NCBI RefSeq assembly: GCF_009914755.1
Contig: NC_060944.1
Source of the DNA: the human T2T-CHM13v2.0 reference genome, Homo sapiens
Reading direction: 5' to 3' (one strand)
Length of the DNA: 64,000 nt
The position numbers and the translations under genes were made by a program. The notes below the pieces were generated by a model that was not told the DNA's origin, searched no databases, and saw nothing but the letters and a program-made list of their open reading frames with translations. This document shows positions 29,096-52,947 of the stretch, piece after piece (the first letter of the stretch is position 1; each line of letters opens with the position of its first letter).

Positions 29096-31013
29096 GCAGG
29101 GCCTGAGCCCAGTCCCCCTAGAGTGAGAGAAGCCCCAGGGGCTTCTCTAATCCCTACCTCTACTCCTGCTTTTCCCTCTTCTCCCAGGCCTGTGGTCTAC
29201 TGCCTTCTCCTGCGGTGCAGAGGCCTTGGGGCCACACCACTCCTACCCCATCCTCCTAGCTCTGGGGTGTCTGCAGGGAGGGGCACCTAGGATGGTAAGG
29301 AGAGCCCATGAAATTCAGTTCTGCTGCATCCCTGTCGCCCCCTAGTGACTGGTGTGGGAAGGACAGCTATCTGGGGAGAGACATTCTCCCTCCCAAGAGG
29401 CACCTCAAGACCTTGGCTGAGCCTCAGTTTCCCCATCTCTAACATGGAGCTGGTGACTCCTCAGCTGTCCAGGCCATGGTGGGGAGGCAACAGGTTCCCC
29501 TTACACAGAATGCAGCACCCTCATCAAGAGCCTAGTATGGAGTAGGGATATGAACATGGCTGCAGATTGTCACTCTGAACTGAGGCTACCCCAGCTGCAG
29601 CCTGGGGTCGGGAGGTCCAGAGAGTCAGGCCCAGAACAGTCAGGCCTTCTGGAGGAGGGGACGGCATCCTCTCTGCTCTCCCACTCCCAAGTCACTGCTC
29701 ACCCACTCTGTACCAGGCCAGCTCACCTCCCCAACCCTACACTTACTTCTTCAACCAACCCTGCTCTGGAGGGCTTCATTGCTTCTTTTGAATAGATGAG
29801 GGCTCTGAGGCTCAGAGAAGGTAAGTAAATTCCCTGATGTCCCACATCTAGTGAGTGACAAAGCTGGATATGAGCCTAGGATTCTGTAATTCCTAAATAC
29901 TGCCTCTTCAGTGAGGGGCAGGGGTAGCGGAGAGTCGCTGGGTCCCCACTAGAAAACAGAATGTGAACTCCAAGAGAGTAAAGAGCATGCTGTTTTGCTG
30001 TACCCCCAGAGTCACACACTGGACACTGGAACAGAGGCCTGGAACAGAGTAGGTGTTCAAGAAATGTCTGCTAAATGACTAAACAAACAGCAATTGATTG
30101 ATTTCTGTCCTTTATCGAATCACAGTTTTCCCCCCATGAAGGTGGCTTATTAATGTATCATTAAAAGAGACTTACAATATTGGCATCTGTAAGAGGATTC
30201 CTATAAATAAAATCAGAACTCAGAAAAGAATAAAAGGCCTGATATGTGGGGTGGAAAACAGCTACTTTATTCCCATGGCAGGGTAACCAACTTTCTGGTT
30301 GTAGTCCCCCTTTCCAGTTCTCAGATTGCCTACAACGTACAGCTTGCAAAGACCAGTGGGGCTTGGAGAAGGGCTGGTCTTCCACGTTGACCTCTGCCTT
30401 AGGGCTGCATTTGGAGGTCCGCCTCAGTTTCTTCAAAGACAGCATCCTACAGGTGCTGGTACTTCAGTGGTTAGCATCCAAAGCCCAGGGTTCGGCCAAG
30501 TTCCCTGTTTTGGGATCCTTCCCAGCCCCCAGAATAAAGAAGAGAGACTAGCTGCAGGGAGGAGGAAGGTTCTGTAAATTCTAGGCCCCTGAGAGGCTAG
30601 GCAGTTTTGTTATGGCTTGATCCCACACTAAACAACCCTGATGATCTAATTATTGGTAAAAACTTTAAGCAAACGTTTTAATGGACTCAACAGCAGGTTA
30701 AGGCTGGCTCTGAGGAAAGCGCTATTGACAAATTGGGCTGTCAGCAAGAGATGAAGTCTTGCTTCTGCTCCAGTTGCTGCCTTTCTGGGGCCTCAAGATC
30801 AAGTTCAGTTTCCTGCCGAAGCCCCATGCCCAGCTGGGGGGCGGTGTGGCCTACTCTCGAGTTCCGGGGCCCCGTGACAGAGGAGTGGAAGGCCGCGATC
30901 CACCTCTGCCGTCCGGCAGACCTGGGTGATGTGCCGGGGGAGGCCCCAAGTCTATGGGCTTAGTGTGGGCAGGGTTGGGTGGGAGTAGGGAGCCCCCCTG
31001 TTGGGGGCTGCCT

Positions 31014-33286
31014 TCAGCGGGTACAAGAAGAGGAAGCGGCTCGCTTAGGATGGAGGCAGCTGCATTGAAGGTGAGTGATGCCATCGGGGTTGCCAGGGGT
31101 TGAGGACCCATCTGGGCGCTCGGTTGAGGCACTTAGAGTGCAGGACGAGCTCCCAGGCCGAAGCTGCACCTGCACCTGCGGGGGCGGGTGGGGCGATGAG
31201 CAGACCCTCTCCATTTCCCGCCTCGGATGTTCCCATGGGAAGTCACAGCCCTAGTTACAGCCCCATCCCTACCCCCATTTTCCAGGTAGGGTCCTACAGA
31301 CCCGAGGGTGCTAGAAGTGTCAGAGGCAGAGCTGGGACTGGAGGGAGTGTGGGAAGGGCTGTCTGGAGGGGACTGGAGGGCGTGCTTCTTGGCTGGAGTG
31401 GAAGGAGTGACTCACGTCCGCCATGATGAGCTGCTCCTTGGGGTGCTGTGTGGGGCCCGGGTCCTCCTCACCGAAGCACAGACAGATCTGGTACTTTGGG
31501 TCCGGTGACCATCCTGCAGGTGGGCACACAATTATACGACACTGAGACTATAGGGACTGGGCAAGAACTAGGCAACCCACTGGTGCCCATCTTGTGCTCA
31601 TTTCCCATGCCCAAGTCCTGTAAGCCCACATCCCATTGTGTGCCTGTACCCTAGGCCCACTTCCACGTTCCTATGCCTGTCCCATGTCCCACATCTGTGC
31701 CCACTTCCAGGTCTTATGTCTCTTCCTTGGCCCCTATGCCCACCCCATGCCTTTATGCCCAACCCATGCCCACTGCCACTCACCTATACCTATCTCGTGC
31801 TTGGTGCACCTCACATCCACCTTATGCCCTAAGCCAACACATGTACCGAAGCCCTATTCTTATGCTGCACACCCAACGCCTCAAGCCTTCTCCATGCCAG
31901 CACCCCATATACGCCTGTATCCGTATATGTGCCCCCAGCCCTCCTGGTGCCTGTATTCTTTCCCATCCCTGGTGCTTTTGTGCCATATTCTTTGTGTCAA
32001 TGTCCACTTCATGCCCAGCACCCTTAGGCCCATCCCCCTGGGCCTGCATTTAATGTGCCCACTCTCCTCTGTTCATGTTCCTTTGCCCACCGCGTCCTTA
32101 TGCCCCCGTTCCCACGCCACTCTGTTCCACTCCTCCAGCCGTCCTACCGCCTGGAGGAAGCCGCGTGTGTTCAGCAGGTGGCAGGTGCGCCTGCGCTCCA
32201 CCTTGTTGGGCTGCGCCAGTACAGGCCCTGGCACAGGCGCTTGGTGAACACGCCCTCCGGAGCCACCCAGAGCTGCACACCGCGCTCCAGGTGAGGCGGC
32301 AGGCCCTGCAACACGTGGGCGCTGGGCAGTGGGTCGGGGAAGCGAACCTGCTGCAACGTGAGGTGGCGGCCCCAGCAGGCGCTCGGCGGCCGCCCGCGGA
32401 CTCAGACGACAGCGCTGGGCTGTGCGCCCGGTGGCTTCGCGCACCAGCGCTGCGGAGAGAAGAGCCACACGTGCAGCCAGCAGGCTGTGGGGCGAGAGAG
32501 GGTGCACGGGCTGGACGTGGGCGGCGCTAGCTCCCCTCGCCTTCTTACCCTCCCCTTCAAACTCTGCCGGACCCAGAGGTCGTCCCAGCCTCTACCTCGG
32601 AAATTTTGGGTGCTCTCTCCCTATCAGTGATGATAAGAATTCTAGTAATAATAGTAGTAAACAATAGCTTCCAGTATAAACGAACTGATAGTCGAGCTCT
32701 GCGGTTAAAAGCTGGGGCCATCTGTACAGTGAGGGCATGACCCTCCCAGCAAATCTTCTGGGATTCTAGGAGCTTCCTCCCAGCAAAGATTTTGATGCAG
32801 GTAGAAATAACCATAACAGCGACAATAACAACAACCTAGCAGCGTCTCATGAGAAACCAGCAATCCTGCTCAGTGGTTAGGGTTGTGGGCTCTGCAGCCA
32901 GGCCCTCGGATTCTAGTCTATCACTGCCACTTAGGAGCTTTCCCAGGGTTACCAGCTGTGTGACCTCAGGCAAGGTTCTTAACCTCTGTGTCCTGGTTTG
33001 GGCATATGTAAAATGGGAATAATAGCAGCATCTGGGGGCTGTGGGGAGCTTGGAAGGGTGCCTGGCATAAACTAAGCCCTCAGGAAATGTTGACTGTTGT
33101 GGCTATTATTGGGAGCCTGGGCTGGGTGCTTTGGGTGGGAGAGAGAGGTGGGCTGGCCCCACCCCGCGGCCGTCCCCAGTTCAGCACACTGGTCGGAGGG
33201 GAGGGGATTTCGATTCCTTACCAGGTTGCTGAAGTCATCGGAGGGCATTGGGCACCAGAGGTTTTTGAGGTCCTATGTCTGGCACC
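31014..33286 (-). CDS. DUSP15: Alternative 3' coding exons of the long (295 aa) DUSP15 isoform: 33222-33286, 32348-32484, 31416-31513, 31014-31175
   Basis: Each internal exon is flanked by AG/GT. 426 nt (MTEG start to exon 6) + 65 + 137 + 98 + 162 = 888 nt, an open frame ending ...HPKRAASSSCTR*, matching my recollection of the 295-aa DUSP15 sequence. Confidence 0.8.
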
Positions 33287-34606
33287 CTGGTGAAGGAGAG
33301 GAAGCAGTCAGGCACCATCTCACCCTGACCCCAGACCCATAGATAAGGAGGAGGCCAGGGAGGAGGCAGGGCTGGGTGAGGAGACCCAGTCCTTACTGTG
33401 GTCAACCAAAGGGCCTGGAGGAGGATGGGTGGTAGTAAGGAACCCTGCTGGGCCAGCCTGTGGGGCCACTCCTTGTCCTCATCCTCTGTGGCAAATCCGG
33501 AGCCATCCTGAGCATTGGGAGAAGAGGCTGTGAGGGTGGGAGAGGAGGCCTGTGACTCCTCAGGAATTCCCAGACTGTTCCCACCAGTGCAGAGAGGTCT
33601 GGGCGGACTGAAGGCCAGCTGGGGTTGACAGTGTTTCTGAGTAAAAGGGCTGGCTGTCCAATGTATTAGAAGTCAATATTATGGCACTGGGCTTTTGAGA
33701 AAAGAACTTTGAAGTTTCAGAGCTCAAACTCCCCCGCCCCCATGGAGGTAAAGAGAAAGTTGATGAAGATGTTGTAGGTATTAGGGCCAGAGATGGGTCA
33801 CTGTGATAGGGAGAGAAGTGCTGGGGGTAAATGCGGAGGTGAGGGAGCTGGAGATGAAAGGTATGCGGGACAGAGCCAGATGCTGATGCGGGGGTGGGGG
33901 TGATGAGCACAGAGCAATGAGCTGTCGACGATGGCGGAAAGGTGATGGGGTGGAGATAATAGGGGTGATACAGACAGAATGAGGGAGACAGAGCTGATGG
34001 GAACAGTGAGGGAGCCGGAGGTGATGGAGCTGGACCCGATGGGGTGCATGGGGGTGGAGTGATGGACCCAAGGAGGACAAAGGAATGAATGTGGAGAAGA
34101 TGGGGTGGCTGCAGACAGGGCAATGAAACTGAAGATGGTGGAGGTGAAGGGAATGGCCTGGTGGTGCTGCAGATGGAGGGAGGGCTGCAGGAGAGGTAGA
34201 AAAAGGTGGAGCGGGTGGGAGCATGGGGACAGGGCTGGAGCTGGTGCTCTGGAGGGATGAGGTAAATGATGGTGCTGGAGGTCATAGCCAGAGAGGGTGG
34301 GGCCAGTGGGTGACTTGCTGAGAGGTGACTGAGCTGGCAAGGCTGCAGGGGCTGGAAGAACACACTCAGCAGGTCTGACCTGCAGGCAGGCTCAGCCACT
34401 TCCCAGGAGCTTCCTTCGGACTAAAGGGCATGCCTACCTCTTCAGGGGGCGCCCAGGCCCTGGTAACTGCATCAAGCAAGAGACAGCCTGCTATTCCCTG
34501 GGCCCCAGGAGGAACCCCCTCAATTTAGACGATCCCAGATGAGTACCCCAGCTCATTGTATGGCCTCAGGCAAGGTCCACCTGTTTCTTGGCCTCAGTTT
34601 CCTCCT

Positions 34607-34917
<311 letters not shown>

Positions 34918-35137
34918 AGTTTCCTCCTTTTCTAGTGGGGAGATAAACTGTGTGGTCTAGGCGTCCTAAATTGACCAGCACATGAGTTTAAGCTCAATGA
35001 GTCCACCACCCACTTTATAGATGAGCAAAGAGATCCTTGTTGCCAGACAGCCATCGTTGGCCATTACCTCCAGGGGCAGGATGGTACCTGGGCCACAGCG
35101 GCAGACACAATGTGGTCTTGTAGAAGTTGGAGATGTT

Positions 35138-35432
<295 letters not shown>

Positions 35433-36104
35433 AGAACTTGGAGGCGTCCAGCTGGCTGCACTCACTCTTGCAGCCCAGAAGGTGGCGCTCTTGTTGAAGG
35501 CAGAGTGGAATCGTTTCTTCCAGGTGGAGGGGCCTCTTTGTTGGTGCCCTCCAAATGCTTGCCCTTGTGCACCATCCAGGCCTGGAGGATTGGGGATGGG
35601 GGCCTTGGGGGGGCATTTGGGGAGGAATAGCTAGGGCACTGGGCCGTGCAGAGGGATGAGAATCTGCCCTGCCCCTTGCCCTCTCTCTCCCTCCTTTTCC
35701 CTTTCCTTTCCCTCCCTCCCTCCCCACAACACATATTATTTGAGCTCCTACTAGGACCCCAGCTAGGGCTGGGGATTGAATGAGGAATAAGATAGACATG
35801 GTTCCTGCTCTCAAGCCTAATGGGAGAAGACAGCTGTAATCAGTTAAACAGAAATAACTATATTCCAAATTATGGTTTGTGATAAATAAAAGAAAAAATA
35901 AATAGAGTGATGGGATATAAAATCATGGCAGTGGTTTGCTATCTGCCGAGCCATAGAATGAAATCCCTACCTATTGTCATACACAAAGTGGACTCCAGAT
36001 GATTTTAAAAACCACAGGTAAGAGAAAAAATGATAAAAAATTAATGGACAATAATGTAGGAGAAAATCTTTTAGGGTCAGAGAACATTTCTTAAAATGTA
36101 AAAG

Positions 36105-36515
36105 GAGTGAGACCCTGTCTCTACTAAAAAAAATAAAAAATAAAAATTAGCCAGGTGTGGTAGTACATGCCTGTAGTCCTAGCTACTTGGGAGAGTGAGG
36201 CAGGAGGATCACATGAGCCCAGGAGGTCGAGGCTGCAGTAAGCCGTGATCACACCACTTCACTCCAGCCTGGTGATCAGGGCTCACTGCAACCTCGACCT
36301 CCTGGGTTCGAGTGATCCTCCCACCTCATCCAAGTAGCTGGGACTACAGGCGCACCCCACCATGTCTGGCTAATAGTAAAATATTTTTTGTAGAGATGGG
36401 GGTGTCACTATGTTGCCCAGGTGGTTGGTCTCGAACTCTTGGGCTCAAGTGATCCTCCCACCTCGGCCTCCCAAAGCACTGGGATTACAGGTGTGAGTTA
36501 CCGTGCCCCAGCCTG
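36105..36515. mobile_element. Two truncated AluJ-like elements joined tail-to-tail (+ ~36105-36272, - ~36273-36515)
   Basis: Alu right-arm sequence followed immediately by its reverse complement; neither has an A-tail. Confidence 0.85.
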
Positions 36516-36740
36516 GGAGGCTACTTTAAAGAGTGTGGTCAGAAAAGGCCTCTTTCAGGAGGTAACATTTGTGCTAAAACCTGGATGGAGCCTGATGAAC
36601 AGCTGGGGAAAGGTGTTCCAGTAAAAGGAACAGCAAAGGCAAAGGGCCTGCAGTGAAAAAGAGATGGATAATTCAGGCAAGGCCAGTGTGGTCAAAGAGG
36701 AGGCCATCAGGAGATGTATTGCTACATTTCTCTCGTTCAG

Positions 36741-36820
36741 CACTGAGGGGGATTTAACTGATGAATTGCACTCAATCATGCACTGAGGCGGATTTAACTG
36801 ATGATTTGCACTCAATCATT
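36741..36820. repeat. 40-bp tandem duplication
   Basis: CACTGAGGGGGATTTAACTGATGAATTGCACTCAATCATG followed by a near-identical copy (3 mismatches). Confidence 0.95.
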
Positions 36821-37376
36821 GTTCTCAGAGACTCCAGGTCTTGTTGGAAACATGGACACCAAAACAGAAAAGCCACAGTTCCTTGTGGGTGCCAGGAGTG
36901 AGACTTTTTGAGGCTTGATTTTATTGTCTGCAAATGTCTGTAGGTGTCAATACCACCTAACCTCGTGAGGTTGGGGTGGGTATAAGATGAGCTGGTGCAT
37001 GTAAAATGCTTAGATAAGTGCCTGGCACACAGTGGTAATTTATTGTGACACTTATTGTATTAAGAATAACATGAAGATGACGTGGGCACAGGGCAGAGGG
37101 TGCTATCACCATGACTAGAGGTGTATTGGTTTTGTTCATGGCTGTGGTCTCCAAGCGACTAGAATGGTCCCTGGCACACAGGACACCCCCAGTATGTATT
37201 TGTTGAATGCACTGAGCTGGGCCTTGAAGGGTCAGTAGGAAGTTGAGAGATGGAGTGACATTTTTGGAAGAGGGAAGAGCTTGAGCAAAGTCCTGGAGGT
37301 ATAGAAGGGCGTGGTGCACTCAGGGGTCAGTGAGCAGCCTGGTGTTGCCCTTGCTGGGTGTGTGTGTCTGAGGGTA

Positions 37377-38030
37377 CAGTCAACTCTCGTTATTTGAGGG
37401 AGTTTAGTTATGTTCTATAAAGTTCCCATAAACACTAAATTAGGGACTAAGGAACCATTGCTCCTAGGGGAAATACAGGGCTAGGTCCCTGCCAGCTTCT
37501 GGTCATACCATTTTCATCAACCAACCAACACATAACCTTGTTTTCTGTGTGTTTCTGTTTGAGGAACTTTATTTAATATGATGTTGATTTATTAACACTG
37601 AACTCGCAACCAACAGCTCTAAACCTCATGCCTGAACGAAGCTTATCTAACTTGTATTTTCCCCAGAAGGCATATGACAGCTTTCTTGCACTCAGGAACA
37701 CTAGACCACACTTCAGCTTTATGCTTGGGGGCCATTTTCAATCACCAACAAAAAAGCACAAAAACATAAAAAATGTGGCACTAAACAGACTGTAAAAAGG
37801 ACACGTGTTTACATATGAGAGCTGAAATAAGAAGGCAGAGAATTGCCTTGTTTGACCTGAGCTTCGAATGTTCCTGGGTGGTTGGGGGGCAACTTACCTT
37901 TTTTGCCATTCTGCGCACATCCATGAATGGCCATGAAACTGATACAAGTGTTGCTTTGGGGATTACAAATAAATCATAGCAAATAGGATAATTTGCAACG
38001 ACAGGATCTATGAATAATGAGGGTCGACTG
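37377..38030. mobile_element. Tigger-family non-autonomous DNA transposon (MER82-like), apparently full length
   Basis: Terminal inverted repeats CAGTCAACTCTCGTTATT ... AATAATGAGGGTCGACTG, preceded by TA, 654 bp; internal sequence resembles the recalled MER82 consensus. Confidence 0.75.
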
Positions 38031-38541
38031 TGTGTGGTGGGGGAAAGAGCAAGAGAAATTAAGGAGGAAGAGATAAGCTGAAGCTAGATCATGAATGTCC
38101 TTGAAGGCCAAGCTTTATTCCATGAGCTTTGGGCACCAGAAGGGTTTGAAGCCAAGGAGTCACATGTGTGTGACAGTGGTGGATTGAGGGATGGGTCAGA
38201 GCAGCCAAAAGGATGGGGAGGCCAGCCCCCAGAATCTCTTGCCTCTGAACAACAATGCTGTTGTTCACGTATATGCATACGTCTTAAGGGACAGGCCATG
38301 CAACCACCCATTCAACACTTATTGAGCACCTACTATGTGCCAGGCACAGTGCTTGATGACACCACCCTCAAGCGGCTCATGGTCTGCTGGAGAAGACAAA
38401 CTCACACCAGACACTTAAAATTCACAGGGAAAGTTGTTCAATGAGCCTTCACCTTTGGAGTCAGTGATGACTTGGAAGAAGCACTGAGTTGGAGCTTAAT
38501 AAATGCATTAAATAAATGAATGCATCGGGGGAGGCTCTCTC

Positions 38542-38700
38542 TTTTTTAAAAAAAAATTTTTATTTCCATAGGTTTTGGGGAACAGGTGGTATTTGGTTAC
38601 ATGAGTAAGTTCTTTAGTGGTGATTTGTGAGGTTTTGGTGCACCCATCACCCAAACAGTATACACTGAACCCAATTTGTAGTCTTTTATTCCTCACCTCC
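38542..38700 (-). mobile_element. L1 3'-end fragment (L1PB-like)
   Basis: T-rich tail followed by typical L1 3' UTR reverse sequence (GGTATTTGGTTACATGAGTAAGTTCTTTAGTGGTGATTTG); flanked by GGCTCTCT direct repeats. Confidence 0.7.
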
Positions 38701-38707
38701 CAGGGAA

Positions 38708-40360
38708 GGCTCTCTTGAGCAAGAGATGGTTAAGCTGAGGATGGTGGGAGCTGACCAGGTAAAAGTGAAGAGCAGAAGGCATTGCAGGCAAAGGGAATCG
38801 CATGTGCAAAGGTTTAACGGTGATAAAGACATGAAACATTTAGAAATGAAAGGAGCTACAGTTGGGGAGGGGAGGGAGTGGAGACAGATGAGGCCAGGGA
38901 GGGGCAGTTCATGGATGGCTTTGAGGGTATAGTGAGTGAGGAATTGAGACTCCTTCACAATGGCAATGGGGAGCTATGGAATGATTCTGATAGGGGAGGG
39001 TCGAGGCTAGATTTGCATTTAGAAAGATCCCTCTTAAGGACTGCGGGGATTGCTGAGGGATGGGGGAAGCAGGAAGCCCAGGGAGGTCACTGCAGTTGTC
39101 CTGTGAGAGCTGACAGAAATGGGTTTCAGCAGAGGGACCGAAGAGACATTCTGCAGGGAGAGCCAGCAGGCCTTGGTAATGGAGTAGAATGAAGCTGGAA
39201 GGTGGGGAGTGGCCAGGGTTCAGATACCCAGGTGGCAGAAGTTTGTGGGGCAGAGCTGATGAGTGTGATGTTTGGGGTGTGTTGAGTTTGAGGTGCTCGG
39301 GGGCCATCCAGGAGACAGTAGCCAGCAGGCAGCTTGATGAGCAGGCTTGGGGTTCAGAGGAAGACCCACAGCCACCATGCTGAGGCCACGGAAGGGGACA
39401 GTGGGACATGAGGAAGTAGGTTCAGAAGTGAGTGCTGGGAGCCCCAGTAGAGGAGGGGACAGGATGGAGGTTGAGAAACAAAGGCCTGGGAGGGGTTGCA
39501 GGGCAGGCAGCAGAGATTCTGGAAGCCAGATGGGAGTGTTTCAAGGAGGAGGGAGGGCCTACAAGATGCAGACCAACCCAACACCATCCAGGAGCCAAAG
39601 AAGATGAAGACAGTGACATATGCTTAGATTTGGCAACTAGAGGCATTATCAAGAGGGACAGAAGCCGGACTGGTCATGGGGGGCTGGGAGGCTGAGAGGG
39701 AGGGAGTTGGTGTAAGGAGACTCTCCAGGTGCTTCCCACTGTGGAAGGAGGGGGAGGCCACAGAAGGAGGGGCTGGAGGTGACTTTGGTGTTTGGGGTGG
39801 TAGTGTGTGGATGTGCGGTTGGTTGCTTATTGCTCAGGGAAGAGAGCCCAGAATTGAAATGACGGCAACTGTCCCTCCACAATGCCAGGAGGTCCTCCAG
39901 GGGGATCTTTCTAAATGCAAATCTGGTCTTTTTTTTTTTTTCTTTTTATAGAGACGGGCTCTCACTATGTTGCCCAGACTGGTCTCGAACTCCTGGGCTC
40001 AAGTGATCCTCCTGCCTTGACCTCCCAAAGTGGTAGGATTACAGTTGAGGCACAACTCCTGGCCACAAATCTGGTTTTGACCCTCCCCTACCATAGCTCC
40101 CCATTGCCCTTGTGAAAGAGTTCCAACTCTTCATGATGGCCTCAAAGCCATGCATGAACTGCCCCTCCTGGGCCTCATCTGCCTCCACTCCCTCTCCTCC
40201 CCCACTTTAGTTCTTTTCATCTCTAAATGCTTCATGTCTTTATCTCCATTAGACCTTTGCACATTCAGTTCCCTTTGCCTGCAATACCTTCGCCTCTTCA
40301 CCTTTACCTGGCATGCTCCCACCATCCTCAGCTTAACCATCTCTTTCTCAAGAAAGGAGC
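38708..40360. repeat. Inverted repeat: arms ~38708-39035 and ~39899-40360; right arm carries an Alu monomer at ~39928-40064
   Basis: Near-identical translations on opposite strands (MVKLRMVGA.QVKVK.RR.CRQRE..VQR.NGDKDMKHLEMK...). The Alu monomer is flanked by CAAATCTGGT direct repeats. Confidence 0.9.
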
Positions 40361-41057
40361 CAGTTTGGAAGAAGTTAATGATGACTGGGGAAAGGAGGGA
40401 CATTCCTGCAGGAGGTCCCTGAGAAGGGCTGGTGTTGGGAGCACCAAAAAGTTTCCTGAGCTGCAGAGGTTGATGGGTTTAGGGGTGGGAGGCTGACAGA
40501 ATTCCCATTAGTGCATTGGTGGAGTGGGAGAAGAGGCCCTCTGAGAGGGGCCGGTGGTGCAGGTCGTGGCAGCCTTGGCTGATTGTTTTAAGAAAGTGTC
40601 TGAGAGTCCCTCATATGTAGAGAACATTACCCTCAGCCCTAGAGGCCAGAAAGTGGCCCAGGGTCACAAGGCTATCCGTCAGTCTCAGTGCTGGGGCAAC
40701 TTGTGTCCAGAGCCTGCCCAGTGCTGAGCGTCTCCAGTCCCCTGTCCCCTTGCCCTGAAGAGTGCTGAGTCCTGTTGCACCTGGTAGCCCTGCTTGGCTA
40801 CATGCTTCCAGGGGATGCGAAAGAGGGTCTTGCCCGCATCCTCCCAGCATAACCCCACGTAGCACCCACTCTCAATCTGTGCCCCCCAAGTCCCAGAGGC
40901 ACAGGGAACCTCTGGCTCTGCCATGGGTCACCTGCCATCGGGGACCTTTCCTTCCTTCTGGCCATCAGGGATGCAGGGGCCAGGTCTTGGGCTTGCAGTG
41001 GCTCAACCCACGTGGGCCTGGGGACTACGGGCCACCTGGATGATGCTGGGAGGCTAT

Positions 41058-41069: not shown

Positions 41070-43699
41070 CTGGGCAGGCAGGTCTCACTTTCTGTTTTGT
41101 CCCCTCTCTTGGGAGGCCCTTTCCTTTTGCACCTCCCCATAGCAGCCTAGCCTGGAGGGCATTGATCCTCTTTTATGGGGTGGCAGGAGGCGCTGTGAGA
41201 CACAAGACCCACGCAAGTGGGGTAGCCTGGGCTCTGCGGGTCTCAGGAGGCCGGCCCCCATGAGCATCCAGAGACACAGCTTTGCCCCAGTCTGCAACTG
41301 TCACCTGCTCTTCCCAGCCCACCTGGAAATTTGTCAGTCTCTTTTCAGGACCTGGACTGTTGAGATTGGAAAGGCACAGGGATTCTCAAACTAACTCCTG
41401 CCAGAACTGAGAGGCAGCAACTCGTTTCAAATGCATACTCATGACCTCCATCCCAGATCTGCAGAATCAGACTTTCTGGGCAGGAAGCCCAGGAAACCCA
41501 CATTGTAATGAGTTCCCCCGTGAGGTTCTGATGCAGGTAGTCCAGGGGTCACACTTATTTCTGTAAATATTAGGAGTTCCCACTTACCGACTGCTCATCA
41601 GTGCTGGGCCTGGCTAAACACTTTCCTGCAGTGTCTCAATTGGTTCTCACAACAGCTTATGAGGTTGGTAAAAGCCCTGTTTTAATGTTAAGACTGAGCT
41701 CAGAGAGGTTAAAGCCCTCTAACAAGGTCACAGAGCTAGTGGGTGGTGGAGCCAGGAGCCAAAATGTGTCTCTCTGCTCCCTAGAGCCCGGGAGCCTAAG
41801 CAGTGCCCCACACTGCCTGCCGACAGCTACACCTGTACTTTGTGGATTCTTGGTGGGGGTCTCTGACCCCCTAAAAGTGAATGTAAATTTCATGTCTATG
41901 CATTTTTTTTGGGGGGGGGATTTGCATCTTTCATTAAATTGTCAAAGGAGATGTGGGATATGAAAAAGATCAAGTTGCTCAGATTGCTCCACTCCTTGCT
42001 GTATTCATGGAACTGAGGCTCTGAGAGAGAATGCCCCCCACTCCCTGCACCTTTGCACAGCACTGGCACAAAGCTGGGCACCCAGCCAGCATTGACCAGA
42101 GACTGGAAGCATTGTTCCTGATGTGTACCTGCTGGGAGGGCTTTCTTCCTGCTCCTCCTTTCCTCTAGCTCCCATATTCCAGTAGCCACCTGGCTCTTGA
42201 AGCATCTTGAAGGATTGATCTGGAATATCAGATCAGTCCTATAGATGATGGGGGCCATGGAGGCTTTTTTTATTTTTCTTTTTTCAAACAGGGTCTCGCT
42301 CTGTCACCCAGGCTGGAGTGCAGTAGCGCAATCTTGGCTCACTACAGCCTCCGCCTCCATGGAGGCTTTTAAATAGGGGAAGACACCATCAGAGGTAGAA
42401 GGTGTTTTAAATGGGGCGTCTGGCAGCACCATTAACCAGCCTGGAGGACTGCGGGCTCCCTGCACTCTGGTGAGTCCAGCCACTTTGCTCTTCACATGAA
42501 CTGTGAAGGGAAAGACCCTAACTCATGATGGTAGGTAGTTAGGAAGCAGCTCCTTCTGTTTTTGGAGGTTACTGGCAAGGAGGTTACTAACTCATGGCCT
42601 TAATGTTCTGTCTGCCTGGAATGCTTCCCCCAGATAACCAAATGGTCCACTCCCTCACCACCTGACATATTTTTTATTTGCTGTCTTCCCGACCAGAATG
42701 TCAGCAACATGAAGGCAGAGGTTTTGCTCATTGCTGTATACCCAGGGCCGAGCACAATGGCTGGCACACAGTAGGTACTCAATGGACATTTGTTGAATGA
42801 ATGAGGAGTAGGAAGTTGGGGTGGCAGCTGAAGGTTATTTTGTCCATCCTCCAACTCCAGTGCTGGAATCGGTGCCTCCCCGACAGCCCTGAGCACAGTG
42901 ATTTGTGCATATTAAGAACCCCATACGAGTGGCTTATTGGGTTATAGCTATTTTCGATCCCTCTCAACTTTGGGTTAACTTTAGTTTTGGAAGTATCAGC
43001 TGCAGTGACTTCTACTCATCCTCAGAGCCAGCTACCGCTTTGATGGGCAGCCCTGGCCTTTAAAGTCTTGGCAGGAAGGGTCATTCCCACTAGCTGGGGG
43101 TGGAGCCTCCTTGTCAGGAACCTCCCAAACCAGAGGAGCTGCTTCCTAACTACCTACCGTCATGGGACTCAGACTGACTAAGCTAGCGTCCAGCTTTCCC
43201 TGCTCTGGCTGTGTGTGCTCCGGCAAGCTGCCTGATCTCTCTGAGCCTCTGTTTCCTCCCTGAGGATTAAGTGAACTCATGCAGTAAAAGGTCAGGATGA
43301 GGGAGGCGCTACCTCACCTTCCTAGCTACTATTTGTGCACAGGGAAGGGAAGGGAGTCGGGGAGGGGAGGGGCCCCTCATGGTGGAGGAGAGGGGTTCAA
43401 AAGGTGGAAGGGGGTTCCGAGAGAAGGAGGGACTTGGGCCTTGTCAGGCGGGACACCGTGGCTTTGGGGGAGGGGAGATGTTAGAGAAGGAGGTGGGGTC
43501 CCAGGAGGCAACTCCGCAGACTGCAGTTGCGGGAGGGTGGTGGGCTCCTCAGGCCCCCAGGGGATGCAGGCTCCCTCGCATCCCCTTTTCTGCAGGCTGC
43601 TGGCCCCTGGCAGTCCTGCTGGCTCCTGGCAGAATCCTGCTGCCCCGCCTTTGTTGAATGACTGGGAGGCACTCGGACAGGCAGCTTCTTCTGTGTCTC

Positions 43700-43705
43700 T
43701 TTAAT
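43700..43705 (-). terminator. Probable DUSP15 proximal polyadenylation signal (variant ATTAAA)
   Basis: TTTAAT on + strand about 310 nt downstream of the stop at 44012. Confidence 0.6.
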
Positions 43706-44011
43706 ACCCTCCAGGCCCGTCAAACCCTCCACTCTCCCTCCCTCCCCTCCCGCCGCCTTTAAGGGTGGGCCCCCTCCCCCAGCCCAAGGACTAAGGCACC
43801 AGGTGGCTGCAGCAGGCCGGCCCGGACACAGAGACGCACAGGTTGGGGACGCTGACTGCAGACGCGGACGAGCAGGGCGGGCGCGGGAGGCAGGGTTCAG
43901 GCCGCCGCGGGGCTCCCCCAGCCTCTGGGCCCGTCCTGGGGGGCGTGGAAGGCGCAGACAGCCCCCGAAGGGAGCCAGTCGGAAGTAGGGAGCCACGGCT
44001 GGACTGCATCC

Positions 44012-52947
<8,936 letters not shown>

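What the first reader, a model, noticed from the sequence alone, without database searches (positions are those of the whole stretch)
31014..40924. A whole dead interferon regulatory factor gene (IRF10-like) hidden between DUSP15 and FOXS1
Seen in sequence, - strand, in colinear order: (i) 40924-40754 MAEPE...AQIESGCYVGLCWEDAGKTLFRIPWKHVAKQGYQVQQDSALFR; (ii) from 35581, after a clean CTCCAG acceptor, [16 protein letters not shown][-1 nt][18 protein letters not shown][shift]ECSQLD.S.FYK; (iii) three short AG/GT-flanked candidate linker exons; (iv) 32484-~32148 CWLHVWLF[shift]ALVREATGRTAQRCRLS..[shift]LQQVRFPDP..HLERGVQLWVAPEGVFTKRLCQGLYW[deletion]QPNKVERRRTCHLLNTRGFLQ; (v) 31533-31416 ELCAHLQDGH[shift]KYQICLCFGEE..QLIMAD; (vi) a last exon from 31175. 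Established: these are the Trp-repeat DNA-binding domain and the IAD of the IRF4/8/9/10 group, and the ALF(K/R)|AW and LI.A(H/D)|V introns are the IRF4 positions. Humans have only IRF1-9, while IRF10 is functional in birds, fish and some mammals. Inference: MAEP start, KH.AKQ.Y..QQD, PSTWK and CWLHV point to IRF10, and retained introns make it the ancestral locus rather than a retrocopy. IRF10 loss in humans has been reported before; the exon-by-exon lesion map is what is read here.
Basis: partly seen in the sequence, partly recalled or inferred. Interest (0 to 1): 0.9.

Follow-up and report, generated by a model that had tools for sequence, protein, structure and literature searches.

The report
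Dead IRF10 gene beside human DUSP15
This is the already reported, broken remnant of the immune gene IRF10 on human chromosome 20, and its last exons now encode the tail of the long forms of the neighbouring DUSP15 phosphatase.

Summary
On the minus strand, 40924-31045, lie eight colinear exons of an IRF gene. They carry Pfam IRF (E 5e-12) and IAD (E 1.4e-10) matches, keep their introns, and sit between DUSP15 and FOXS1. Read through with X at each break, the sequence covers 366 of 420 positions of colugo IRF10 (73% identical). It is 47/44/38% identical to human IRF4/8/9. In a careful tree it falls inside the eutherian 'IRF4-like' (IRF10) clade (100/100). An AU test rejects grouping it with IRF4 (p 0.0002).

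The gene is dead. It has at least a dozen frameshifting indels, an Alu-type insert in DNA-binding exon 2, a first premature TGA at 35464-35462, and damaged splice sites.

None of this is new. The human locus was named IRF10 in 2006, a 210-aa remnant was reported in 2010, and mammalian pseudogenisation was reported in 2023.

I found one point in no paper. Pseudo-exons E4/E5-E8, re-spliced at two internal sites, are the alternative 3' exons of DUSP15. They encode 153 of 295 residues of the human 'DUSP15' reference protein, and 190 of 332 in isoform X2. About half of these codons are read in the old IRF10 frame.

The parts
40754..40924 (-). IRF10 pseudo-exon 1: ATG plus the first half of the DNA-binding domain. 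It has -1 nt near 40917, +1 nt near 40889 and one codon lost. The donor is AGG|gcaagg (GC, not GT).
   Evidence: (PF00605, E 5e-12)
35434..35581 (-). Pseudo-exon 2, 5' part (AWMVHKGK...ECSQLDAS). The acceptor ctccag is intact. It has -1 nt near 35532 and +2 nt near 35464. The first premature stop in the spliced frame is TGA 35464-35462. Target-site copy 1 lies at 35448-35434.
35138..35433 (+). Alu-type SINE inserted into exon 2, antisense to IRF10, with its T-run at the 35433 end. The name comes from my recognition of the sequence; no repeat library was run.
   Evidence: the hub table masks 35132-35443
35088..35137 (-). Pseudo-exon 2, 3' part (NISNFYK..IVS..). Target-site copy 2 lies at 35137-35123. 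About 4 nt are missing after YK. The donor CAG|gtacca is intact.
   Evidence: the colugo retained-intron isoform aligns at 35094-35017, E 3.5e-5
34370..34466 (-). Pseudo-exon 3 (linker, TRAWAPPEE...EPACRSDL). The acceptor is tgatgcag. It has -1 nt near 34400. The expected donor reads ctgagt, an inferred GT>CT change. A GT at 34379 lies inside the exon.
   Evidence: the donor reading is inference from exon length and phase
33397..33507 (-). Pseudo-exon 4 (DGSGFATEDEDKEW...), flanked by AG and GT, with -1 nt near 33419. It is identical to a RefSeq DUSP15 alternative exon.
   Evidence: hub table
33222..33286 (-). Pseudo-exon 5 (..NLWCPMPSDDFSN), flanked by AG and GT, with +1 nt near 33264. It is identical to a RefSeq DUSP15 alternative exon.
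   Evidence: hub table
32148..32484 (-). Pseudo-exon 6, the main IAD exon. It has -1 nt near 32457, +1 nt near 32351, -25 nt near 32211 and in-frame losses. DUSP15 transcripts use only 32484-32348, through an internal donor CAG|gttcgc.
   Evidence: (PF10401, E 1.4e-10); hub table
31416..31533 (-). Pseudo-exon 7 (LCAHLQDGH / KYQICLCFGEE..LIMAD). There is no AG at the ancestral acceptor. It has -1 nt near 31503. The donor GAC|gtgagt is intact. DUSP15 transcripts enter at the internal acceptor 31513.
   Evidence: hub table
31045..31175 (-). Pseudo-exon 8 coding part (..AWELVLHSKCL..PDGITHL..), with several frameshifts and a TAA near 31047-31045. The RefSeq exon 30247-31175 continues as 3' UTR.
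   Evidence: hub table
45181..45352 (-). DUSP15 coding exon. It ends in phase 0 and in the long isoforms is joined to pseudo-exon 4 or 5 instead of DUSP15's own last exon (43686-44284).

Best explanation
The interval holds the unitary pseudogene of IRF10. IRF10 is the fourth member of the IRF4/8/9/10 group, and this copy sits at its ancestral place downstream of DUSP15 and upstream of FOXS1.

All eight coding exons survive, with their introns, but the gene cannot make an IRF. Shown:
- Both DNA-binding exons are frameshifted.
- An Alu-type element sits inside exon 2.
- The spliced frame stops at a TGA in exon 2.
- The association domain has lost 25 nt and carries further frameshifts.

Inferred: two or three splice sites are damaged.

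The gene was probably already broken in the catarrhine ancestor. Lemurs and colugos still carry largely open models.

The remnant has an afterlife. DUSP15 transcription runs on into it. Exons 4/5-8 are spliced to DUSP15 exon 45181-45352 through one internal donor (32348) and one internal acceptor (31513). This keeps a frame open to a stop in the last exon and yields the annotated 295-aa and 332-aa DUSP15 proteins (shown at the sequence level). I judge the tail most likely a by-product without a function of its own.
For: Domains: Pfam IRF at E 5e-12 and IAD at E 1.4e-10 and 1.3e-3 on single frames.

Colinear tblastn hits for 9 of 9 IRF10 queries.

Frameshift-aware alignment to colugo P0015: 366 of 420 positions filled, 269 identical, 9 X.

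Identity to eutherian IRF10 is 65-73%. To human IRF4/8/9 exons it is 47/44/38%.

Trees:
- Quick tree of 56 rows: eutherian clade 100*, IRF10 clade 99*, sister to IRF4.
- Careful tree of 44 rows (12 long or odd rows dropped): eutherian clade 100/100, with colugo 97/78, IRF10 clade 100/99.
- AU test against a clade with IRF4: lnL lower by 121.3, p 0.0002.
- Control with frames chosen against an IRF4 representative: still inside the eutherian clade, 96*.

The own-genome search found 26 matches on 10 chromosomes, with chr20 hits only in this window.

Intron positions are shared with IRF4/8/9.

Synteny: 19 of the 120 listed relatives are bird 'DUSP15' models carrying DSPc+IRF+IAD. Domain order was checked for P0117, P0076 and P0043. 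Literature passages agree.

DUSP15 tail:
- A model joining the RefSeq exons gives an open frame of 335 aa.
- Its 190-aa tail is found whole in human P0366 and P0368, and residues 38-190 in P0367.
- 106 of 190 and 77 of 153 tail codons are in the ancestral IRF10 frame.
- There is a sub-threshold IAD trace in P0367 (E 0.0094).
Against: No ortholog DNA was available. Each lesion is therefore called against a protein reference, and the position and number of the small indels depend on my own aligner. Those in exon 8 are the least sure.

The window row was read against colugo IRF10, which favours that neighbour. The IRF4-guided control mis-aligned exon 1 and gave a long branch of 1.44.

No database row bears the name IRF10; the sources call the clade 'IRF4-like'. 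The name rests on three things:
- literature synteny;
- PDB 8hcl_A 'IRF10' being the best DNA-binding-domain hit for a pheasant member (205.6 against 193.3 bits);
- exon 1 scoring 53.1 bits against it, compared with 49.2 for IRF4.

The basal representative P0228 scored slightly higher on IRF4 (161.3 against 158.1 bits).

I saw no expression or protein evidence for the DUSP15 tail. The hub table does not say which exons are joined in which transcript, and 3 exons are not listed.
Confidence: 0.93

Rival explanations
1. The DUSP15 tail built from IRF10 exons is a selected, translated C-terminal domain: an exaptation of a dead gene, giving catarrhine DUSP15 a new function.
For: The frame stays open across five exons only because two internal splice sites skip frame-breaking parts. 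The same derived frame and the same end are present in human, gibbon and snub-nosed monkey models. The stop lies in the last exon, so nonsense-mediated decay is not expected (inference).
Against: The selected RefSeq transcript ends in DUSP15's own last exon, giving 235 aa. The tail is a mosaic of in-frame and out-of-frame IRF10 pieces: 106 of 190 codons are in frame. No Pfam domain reaches threshold. The three primate models differ by exon skipping and small gaps. Gene predictors favour long open frames. Close relatives share open frames by descent alone.
Confidence: 0.1
2. The locus still makes a short IRF-like product, for example a truncated DNA-binding peptide from exon 1-2, acting as a decoy.
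For: The ATG and a 57-codon open exon 1 are kept. All five tryptophan positions of the domain are still recognisable.
Against: The first helix region is scrambled by a -1/+1 pair. The exon 1 donor is GC. Exon 2 is frameshifted, stops at TGA 35464-35462 and carries a SINE. None of the RefSeq exons listed by the hub lies in 34370-40924.
Confidence: 0.02
3. It is a retrocopy or a duplicated fragment of IRF4, IRF8 or IRF9 rather than the ancestral IRF10 locus.
For: Sources name the relatives 'IRF4-like'. The PDB scores of exon 1 for IRF10 and IRF4 are close, 53.1 against 49.2 bits.
Against: Seven introns are retained at family positions. The AU test rejects a clade with IRF4, p 0.0002. Identity is 65-73% to eutherian IRF10 against 38-47% to human IRF4/8/9. 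The neighbourhood is syntenic.
Confidence: 0.01

Closest known systems
IRF10 of chicken, other birds, reptiles, amphibians and many mammals (labelled 'interferon regulatory factor 4-like' by NCBI)
   Same: Same clade, same eight-exon layout, same neighbour DUSP15 on the same strand, and the same diagnostic motifs.
   Different: The human copy has no open frame. It has at least a dozen frameshifts, a SINE in exon 2, damaged splice sites, and a terminal branch of 0.30 against 0.04 for colugo.
Human IRF4 (chr6), the nearest intact paralogue
   Same: Same domain order and the same intron positions ALFK|AW and LITAH|V. It is the sister clade.
   Different: 47% identical over 250 shared positions. 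A clade with it is rejected. The chromosome and neighbours differ.
The human chr20 'IRF10' of Wotton & Shimeld 2006, the 210-aa segment of Huang et al. 2010, and the IRF10 pseudogenisation in mammals of Li et al. 2023
   Same: The same locus and the same conclusion that humans lack functional IRF10 (passages seen).
   Different: The passages I could read give no exon-by-exon lesions and no link to DUSP15 isoforms. Li 2023 and Nehyba 2002 were not readable, so they may contain them.
Read-through (conjoined) transcripts that take up exons of a downstream gene or pseudogene
   Same: An upstream gene splices past its own last exon into downstream exons and gains a new C-terminus.
   Different: Here the downstream partner is a unitary pseudogene and half of the tail is out of its old frame. 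Bird and mammal gene models fuse DUSP15 to an intact IRF10, so the read-through may predate the gene's death (inference).

Membership tests
IRF family, IRF4/8/9/10 group | N-terminal tryptophan-repeat DNA-binding domain (Pfam PF00605) | tested here: met
   Exon 1 alone scores 46.5 bits, E 5e-12, against a cut-off of 27. Exon 2 aligns only after frameshift correction. The domain is vestigial.
IRF family, IRF4/8/9/10 group | C-terminal IRF association domain (Pfam PF10401) | tested here: met
   Single frames score 41.6 bits (E 1.4e-10) and 19 bits (E 1.3e-3). The domain is split over three frames.
IRF family, IRF4/8/9/10 group | Shared intron positions (after ALF[KR], before AW; after LI.A[HD], before V) | tested here: met
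   Window. Human IRF4: both positions. IRF8 and IRF9: the AW acceptor.
IRF10 orthologue | Groups with IRF10 rather than IRF4, IRF8 or IRF9 | tested here: met
   100/100 inside eutherian IRF10; AU p 0.0002 against IRF4; IRF4-guided control, 96*. The name of the clade rests on the literature and on PDB 8hcl_A.
IRF10 orthologue | Synteny DUSP15 - IRF10 - FOXS1 - MYLK2 | tested here: met
   Hub table for the window. Fused DSPc+IRF+IAD models in birds and two mammals. Passages in PMC1634998, PMC2885996 and PMC5281639.
Functional IRF10 gene | Uninterrupted reading frame and intact splice sites | tested here: not met
   Frameshifts in all eight exons, TGA at 35464-35462, a SINE in exon 2, a GC donor on exon 1, and no AG at the exon 7 acceptor.
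Unitary pseudogene | Ancestral locus with introns and no intact copy elsewhere in the genome | tested here: met
   Introns retained. In the own-genome search the other 22 of 26 matches lie on nine other chromosomes, at what I take to be IRF1-9. IRF4/8/9 are named; the rest are recalled.
Processed pseudogene (retrocopy) | No introns, poly-A tail, flanking target duplication | tested here: not met
   The eight exons are spread over 9.9 kb, with family introns.

The most novel reading that the evidence does not exclude
The IRF10 fossil is not inert. In catarrhine primates its exons 4/5-8 were captured by DUSP15, so that about half of the 295-residue human DUSP15 reference protein is a re-spliced remnant of a dead interferon regulatory factor. 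This tail is translated and alters the localisation, stability or partners of the phosphatase. Read-through from DUSP15 into IRF10 would then be an old amniote feature that outlived IRF10 itself. The sequence derivation is shown here. Translation and function are not.
Probability: 0.1. Interest if true: 0.55.

Novelty: already known. Interest (0 to 1): 0.3.

Why it matters
The dead gene itself confirms a textbook gap: humans have IRF1-9 only.

The practical point concerns DUSP15. The long human 'DUSP15' sequences in public databases carry 153-190 residues that come from a pseudogene. I recall, but did not check, that the 295-aa form is the UniProt canonical entry. Structural, dynamical or interaction work done on that sequence would be describing a fossil tail, whereas the selected RefSeq transcript encodes 235 residues.

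The case is also a clean example of a unitary pseudogene whose splice signals keep working for a neighbour. And it refines the statement 'IRF10 absent in primates and rodents': lemur, colugo, beaver and squirrel models are still largely open.

Tried and rejected

2. Nehyba 2002 (PMC133824) and Nehyba 2009 (PMC2767096) are not held. Li 2023 (Gene 854:147083) is known to me only through citations. My memory that Nehyba 2002 already mentions a human pseudogene is unverified.

3. My aligner first extended exon 2/3 into 34603-34540 ('RKLRPR..QVDLARPYNE'). I considered this as the continuation of exon 2 and rejected it. That stretch is the A-rich tail and flank of a second SINE. The true continuation, NISNFYK, follows the first SINE at 35137.

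4. Naming the clade through the PDB gave a mixed result. The pheasant member prefers 8hcl_A 'IRF10'. The basal representative P0228 slightly prefers IRF4.

5. In the IRF4-guided reading, exon 1 aligned to a wrong part of representative P0268 (aa 258-302), which lengthened the branch to 1.44. The placement still held.

6. The first AU run and the first careful-tree run did not finish and were continued.

7. Literature searches for a described link between DUSP15 isoforms and IRF10 found none. These were (2 papers; 3 papers; 7 papers), with passages of PMC3394735 and PMC13147768 read. The library lacks most subscription journals, so this is weak evidence that the link is absent from print.

8. 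I did not fold the tail. With only five near-identical primate rows a model would say little.
Full report
**What is there**

The stretch MAEPE...IPWKHVAKQGYQVQQDSALFR lies at 40924-40754, directly after an in-frame TGA. The other fragments appear in the stop-to-stop frames listed.

Single frames already match Pfam:
- the IRF DNA-binding domain in 40924-40754 (46.5 bits, E 5e-12, cut-off 27);
- the IRF association domain in 32401-32171 (41.6 bits, E 1.4e-10);
- the same domain in 31547-31320 (E 1.3e-3).

**Relatives**

Exon 1 was searched against the large protein collection for longer proteins. It found 104 proteins at E <= 0.001 among 104 candidates. Most full-length hits are mammalian 'interferon regulatory factor 4-like' proteins, 81-88% identical over the conserved part. 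They include two lemurs (Prolemur, Microcebus), two colugos and rodents (beaver, squirrels).

tblastn of nine of these proteins against the window gave colinear hits for all nine:
- 40960-40751;
- 35590-35466, in two frames;
- about 34467-34372 (weak);
- 33510-33418;
- 33281-33225 (weak);
- 32495-32145, in two frames;
- 31531-31401;
- 31152-31047 (weak).

**Exon and lesion map**

I wrote a protein-to-DNA aligner that allows frameshifts. I ran it against colugo IRF10 (P0015) and a canid IRF10 (P0082), then read the junctions.

- **E1, 40924-40754.** The ATG is kept. There is a -1 nt lesion near 40917, a +1 nt lesion near 40889 and one lost codon. Together these scramble the segment PLRLRDWLVA. 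The donor is AGG|gcaagg.
- **E2, 35581-35088.** The acceptor is ctccag. There is -1 nt near 35532 and +2 nt near 35464. A 296-nt Alu-type SINE (35433-35138) is inserted antisense. It is flanked by a duplication, gacgcctccaagttc / aacatctccaacttc, with 11 of 15 positions identical. The exon then continues as NISNFYK..IVS, with about 4 nt missing. The donor is CAG|gtacca. That this is the orthologous donor is shown by a colugo isoform with a retained intron: its extra segment aligns at 35094-35017 (54% identical, E 3.5e-5).
- **E3, 34466-34370.** There is -1 nt near 34400. The length and phase expected from the orthologues put the donor at ctgagt. I read this as GT>CT, which is inference.
- **E4, 33507-33397.** -1 nt.
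- **E5, 33286-33222.** +1 nt.
- **E6, 32484-32148.** Lesions of -1, +1 and -25 nt, plus in-frame losses.
- **E7, 31533-31416.** There is no AG at the ancestral acceptor, and -1 nt.
- **E8, 31175 to the TAA near 31047-31045.** Several shifts; this exon is the least certain.

Spliced from the ATG, the frame ends at TGA 35464-35462.

In all, 366 of 420 colugo positions are covered, 269 of them identical, with 9 X. The exact number and place of the small indels depend on a protein reference and on my aligner.

**Which IRF**

The window's own genome has 26 matches to lemur IRF10 on ten chromosomes. The chr20 matches are all in this window. PMC1634998 names chr6, chr16 and chr14 as IRF4, IRF8 and IRF9. 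The other gene names are recalled.

Over shared positions the pseudogene's identity is:
- 73% to colugo IRF10;
- 65-68% to lemur, canid and elephant IRF10;
- 41-51% to marsupial, bird, tuatara and salamander members;
- 47/44/38% to human IRF4/8/9 exons.

Three trees and one test address the assignment.

- **Quick tree of 56 rows.** The rows were 22 named IRF10-type proteins, 30 unnamed 50%-cluster representatives (labelled by tblastn against the human loci), human IRF4/8/9 exon rows, and the window. The window falls in the eutherian clade (100*). It sits in a 4-row group with the two lemurs and the colugo (95*). The whole clade (28 rows, 99*) is sister to true IRF4.
- **Careful tree of 44 rows.** I dropped 12 long or odd rows: P0283, P0356, P0318, P0350, P0245, P0250, P0252, P0261, P0262, P0243, P0235 and P0020. 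Support is 100/100 for the eutherian clade, 97/78 for window plus colugo, 93/94 with Microcebus added, and 100/99 for the IRF10 clade.
- **AU test.** Holding the window with the IRF4 clade costs 121.3 log-likelihood units (p-AU 0.0002).
- **Control for reference bias.** I re-read four exons against an IRF4 representative. Exon 1 then mis-aligned and the branch grew to 1.44, yet the row stayed in the eutherian IRF10 clade (96*).

No source names the clade IRF10. The name follows from synteny and the literature. It is also supported by PDB 8hcl_A 'Interferon regulatory factor 10', which is the best DNA-binding-domain match of a pheasant member (205.6 against 193.3 bits) and of exon 1 among single-IRF chains (53.1 against 49.2 bits). 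The basal representative P0228 was not decisive.

**Synteny and introns**

The window has the order DUSP15 > [this] > FOXS1 on one strand, with MYLK2 beyond (hub table).

Of the 120 best relatives of tuatara IRF10, 19 are bird models named 'dual specificity protein phosphatase 15' that carry DSPc, IRF and IAD domains. Two mammalian models do the same. In P0117, P0076 and P0043 the phosphatase domain precedes the IRF domains. That is the order found in the window.

The introns after ALFR and after LIMAD are at the positions of human IRF4 (ALFK|gt, cag|GCTTGG, LITAH|gtgagt). The AW acceptor is shared with IRF8 and IRF9.

**What is already in print**

For each of these papers I read passages only.
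- Wotton & Shimeld 2006 list 'DUSP15, IRF10, FOXS1, MLCK2' on human chromosome 20 and find no Irf10 in mouse.
- Huang et al. [quoted passage not shown] 2023.
- PMC11125504 cites the same paper for 'absent in primates and rodents'.

Li 2023 and Nehyba 2002/2009 could not be read. The pseudogene is therefore known. I cannot tell whether the lesion map is.

**The afterlife in DUSP15**

The alternative DUSP15 exons in the hub table coincide with pseudo-exons E4, E5, part of E6, part of E7, and E8. These are 33397-33507, 33222-33286, 32348-32484, 31416/31422-31513 and 30247-31175.

Joining DUSP15's first six coding exons, which end in phase 0 at 45181, to these exons gives an open frame of 335 (or 333) residues with a 190-residue tail. 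The selected transcript gives 235.

A search with the 45 residues of the E6 part found 11 proteins at E <= 0.001 among 4821 candidates:
- three human DUSP15 proteins at 100% identity: P0367 (295 aa), P0366 (isoform X2, 332 aa) and P0368 (isoform X5, 232 aa);
- a 144-aa ORF from a metagenome-type source (98%);
- gibbon (88%) and snub-nosed monkey (90%) DUSP15 models;
- five IRF10 proteins (72-73%).

My whole 190-residue tail is contained in P0366 and P0368. Its residues 38-190 form positions 143-295 of P0367.

Of the tail codons, 106 of 190 (77 of 153 in P0367) are read in the ancestral IRF10 frame. By exon the counts are E4 29 of 37, E5 0 of 22, E6 35 of 46, E7 28 of 32 and E8 14 of 53.

Pfam sees only the phosphatase domain, plus a sub-threshold IAD trace in P0367 (E 0.0094).

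The frame stays open because of two internal splice sites. The donor at 32348 (CAG|gttcgc) and the acceptor at 31513 (cctgcag|GATGG) skip the 25-nt deletion and the start of E7.

The three catarrhine models share the derived reading VQVQL.PG.SSCTLSAS directly after an in-frame E7, in place of the ancestral VEPVFARELL. At least the early E8 frameshift therefore seems to predate their common ancestor. This is inference from gene models.

I found no paper linking DUSP15 isoforms to IRF10.

**Verdict**

The finding is correct and well read, but it rediscovers a known unitary pseudogene. The part that may be new, and is of practical use, is that the long human DUSP15 proteins owe their C-terminal half to this fossil. 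I think the tail is most likely a by-product of read-through (about 0.9) rather than a selected domain (about 0.1).

Noticed in passing
window 34595-34933: A second Alu-type SINE lies in intron 2 in the sense orientation (body about 34612-34916). It has a perfect 17-nt target duplication, CAGTTTCCTCCTTTTCT, at 34595-34611 and 34917-34933. It is 86% complementary over 169 nt to the SINE inside exon 2. It is probably the younger of the two.
   Followed up: partly
proteins P0117-P0172, P0076, P0043: Nineteen bird gene models named 'DUSP15' (655-730 aa) and two mammalian ones fuse a complete DUSP15 phosphatase domain to a complete IRF10. This reflects either widespread read-through transcription or a recurrent annotation merge.
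   Followed up: partly
proteins P0049, P0046, P0020, P0005, P0056: Lemur (Microcebus, Prolemur), beaver and squirrel databases hold largely open IRF10-type models. 'IRF10 absent in primates and rodents' (passage in PMC11125504) is therefore too broad. The lemur models lack the canonical last exon and read into the last intron, so their integrity is uncertain.
   Followed up: partly
protein P0046 against window 31513: Microcebus isoform X2 reads ...RRFLE|GWSPG..., which looks like use of the same internal acceptor as the human DUSP15 tail (..AAG|WSPDPKY). That site may be an old alternative acceptor of IRF10 exon 7.
   Followed up: no
protein P0370 (gibbon) against window near 32457: The gibbon DUSP15 model reads SCWLHVWLFSGAALVRE in one frame, whereas human needs a -1 nt shift after CWLHVWLF. 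That lesion may be younger than the gibbon-great ape split, or the model may be adjusted.
   Followed up: no
protein P0369 against window 32507-32076: A 144-aa ORF from a metagenome-type source ('lgn', contig 3135 nt) is 98.6% identical to this human stretch. It is presumably primate DNA in that data set. Its origin was not pursued.
   Followed up: no
window 40925-40964: Upstream of the ATG, the human sequence still aligns with the N-terminal extension of some mammalian models (..KEGKVPDGR*P against ..KEEGKVPAGRRP), with a TGA at 40930-40928. This is either a conserved 5' UTR or an alternative upstream start lost in human.
   Followed up: no
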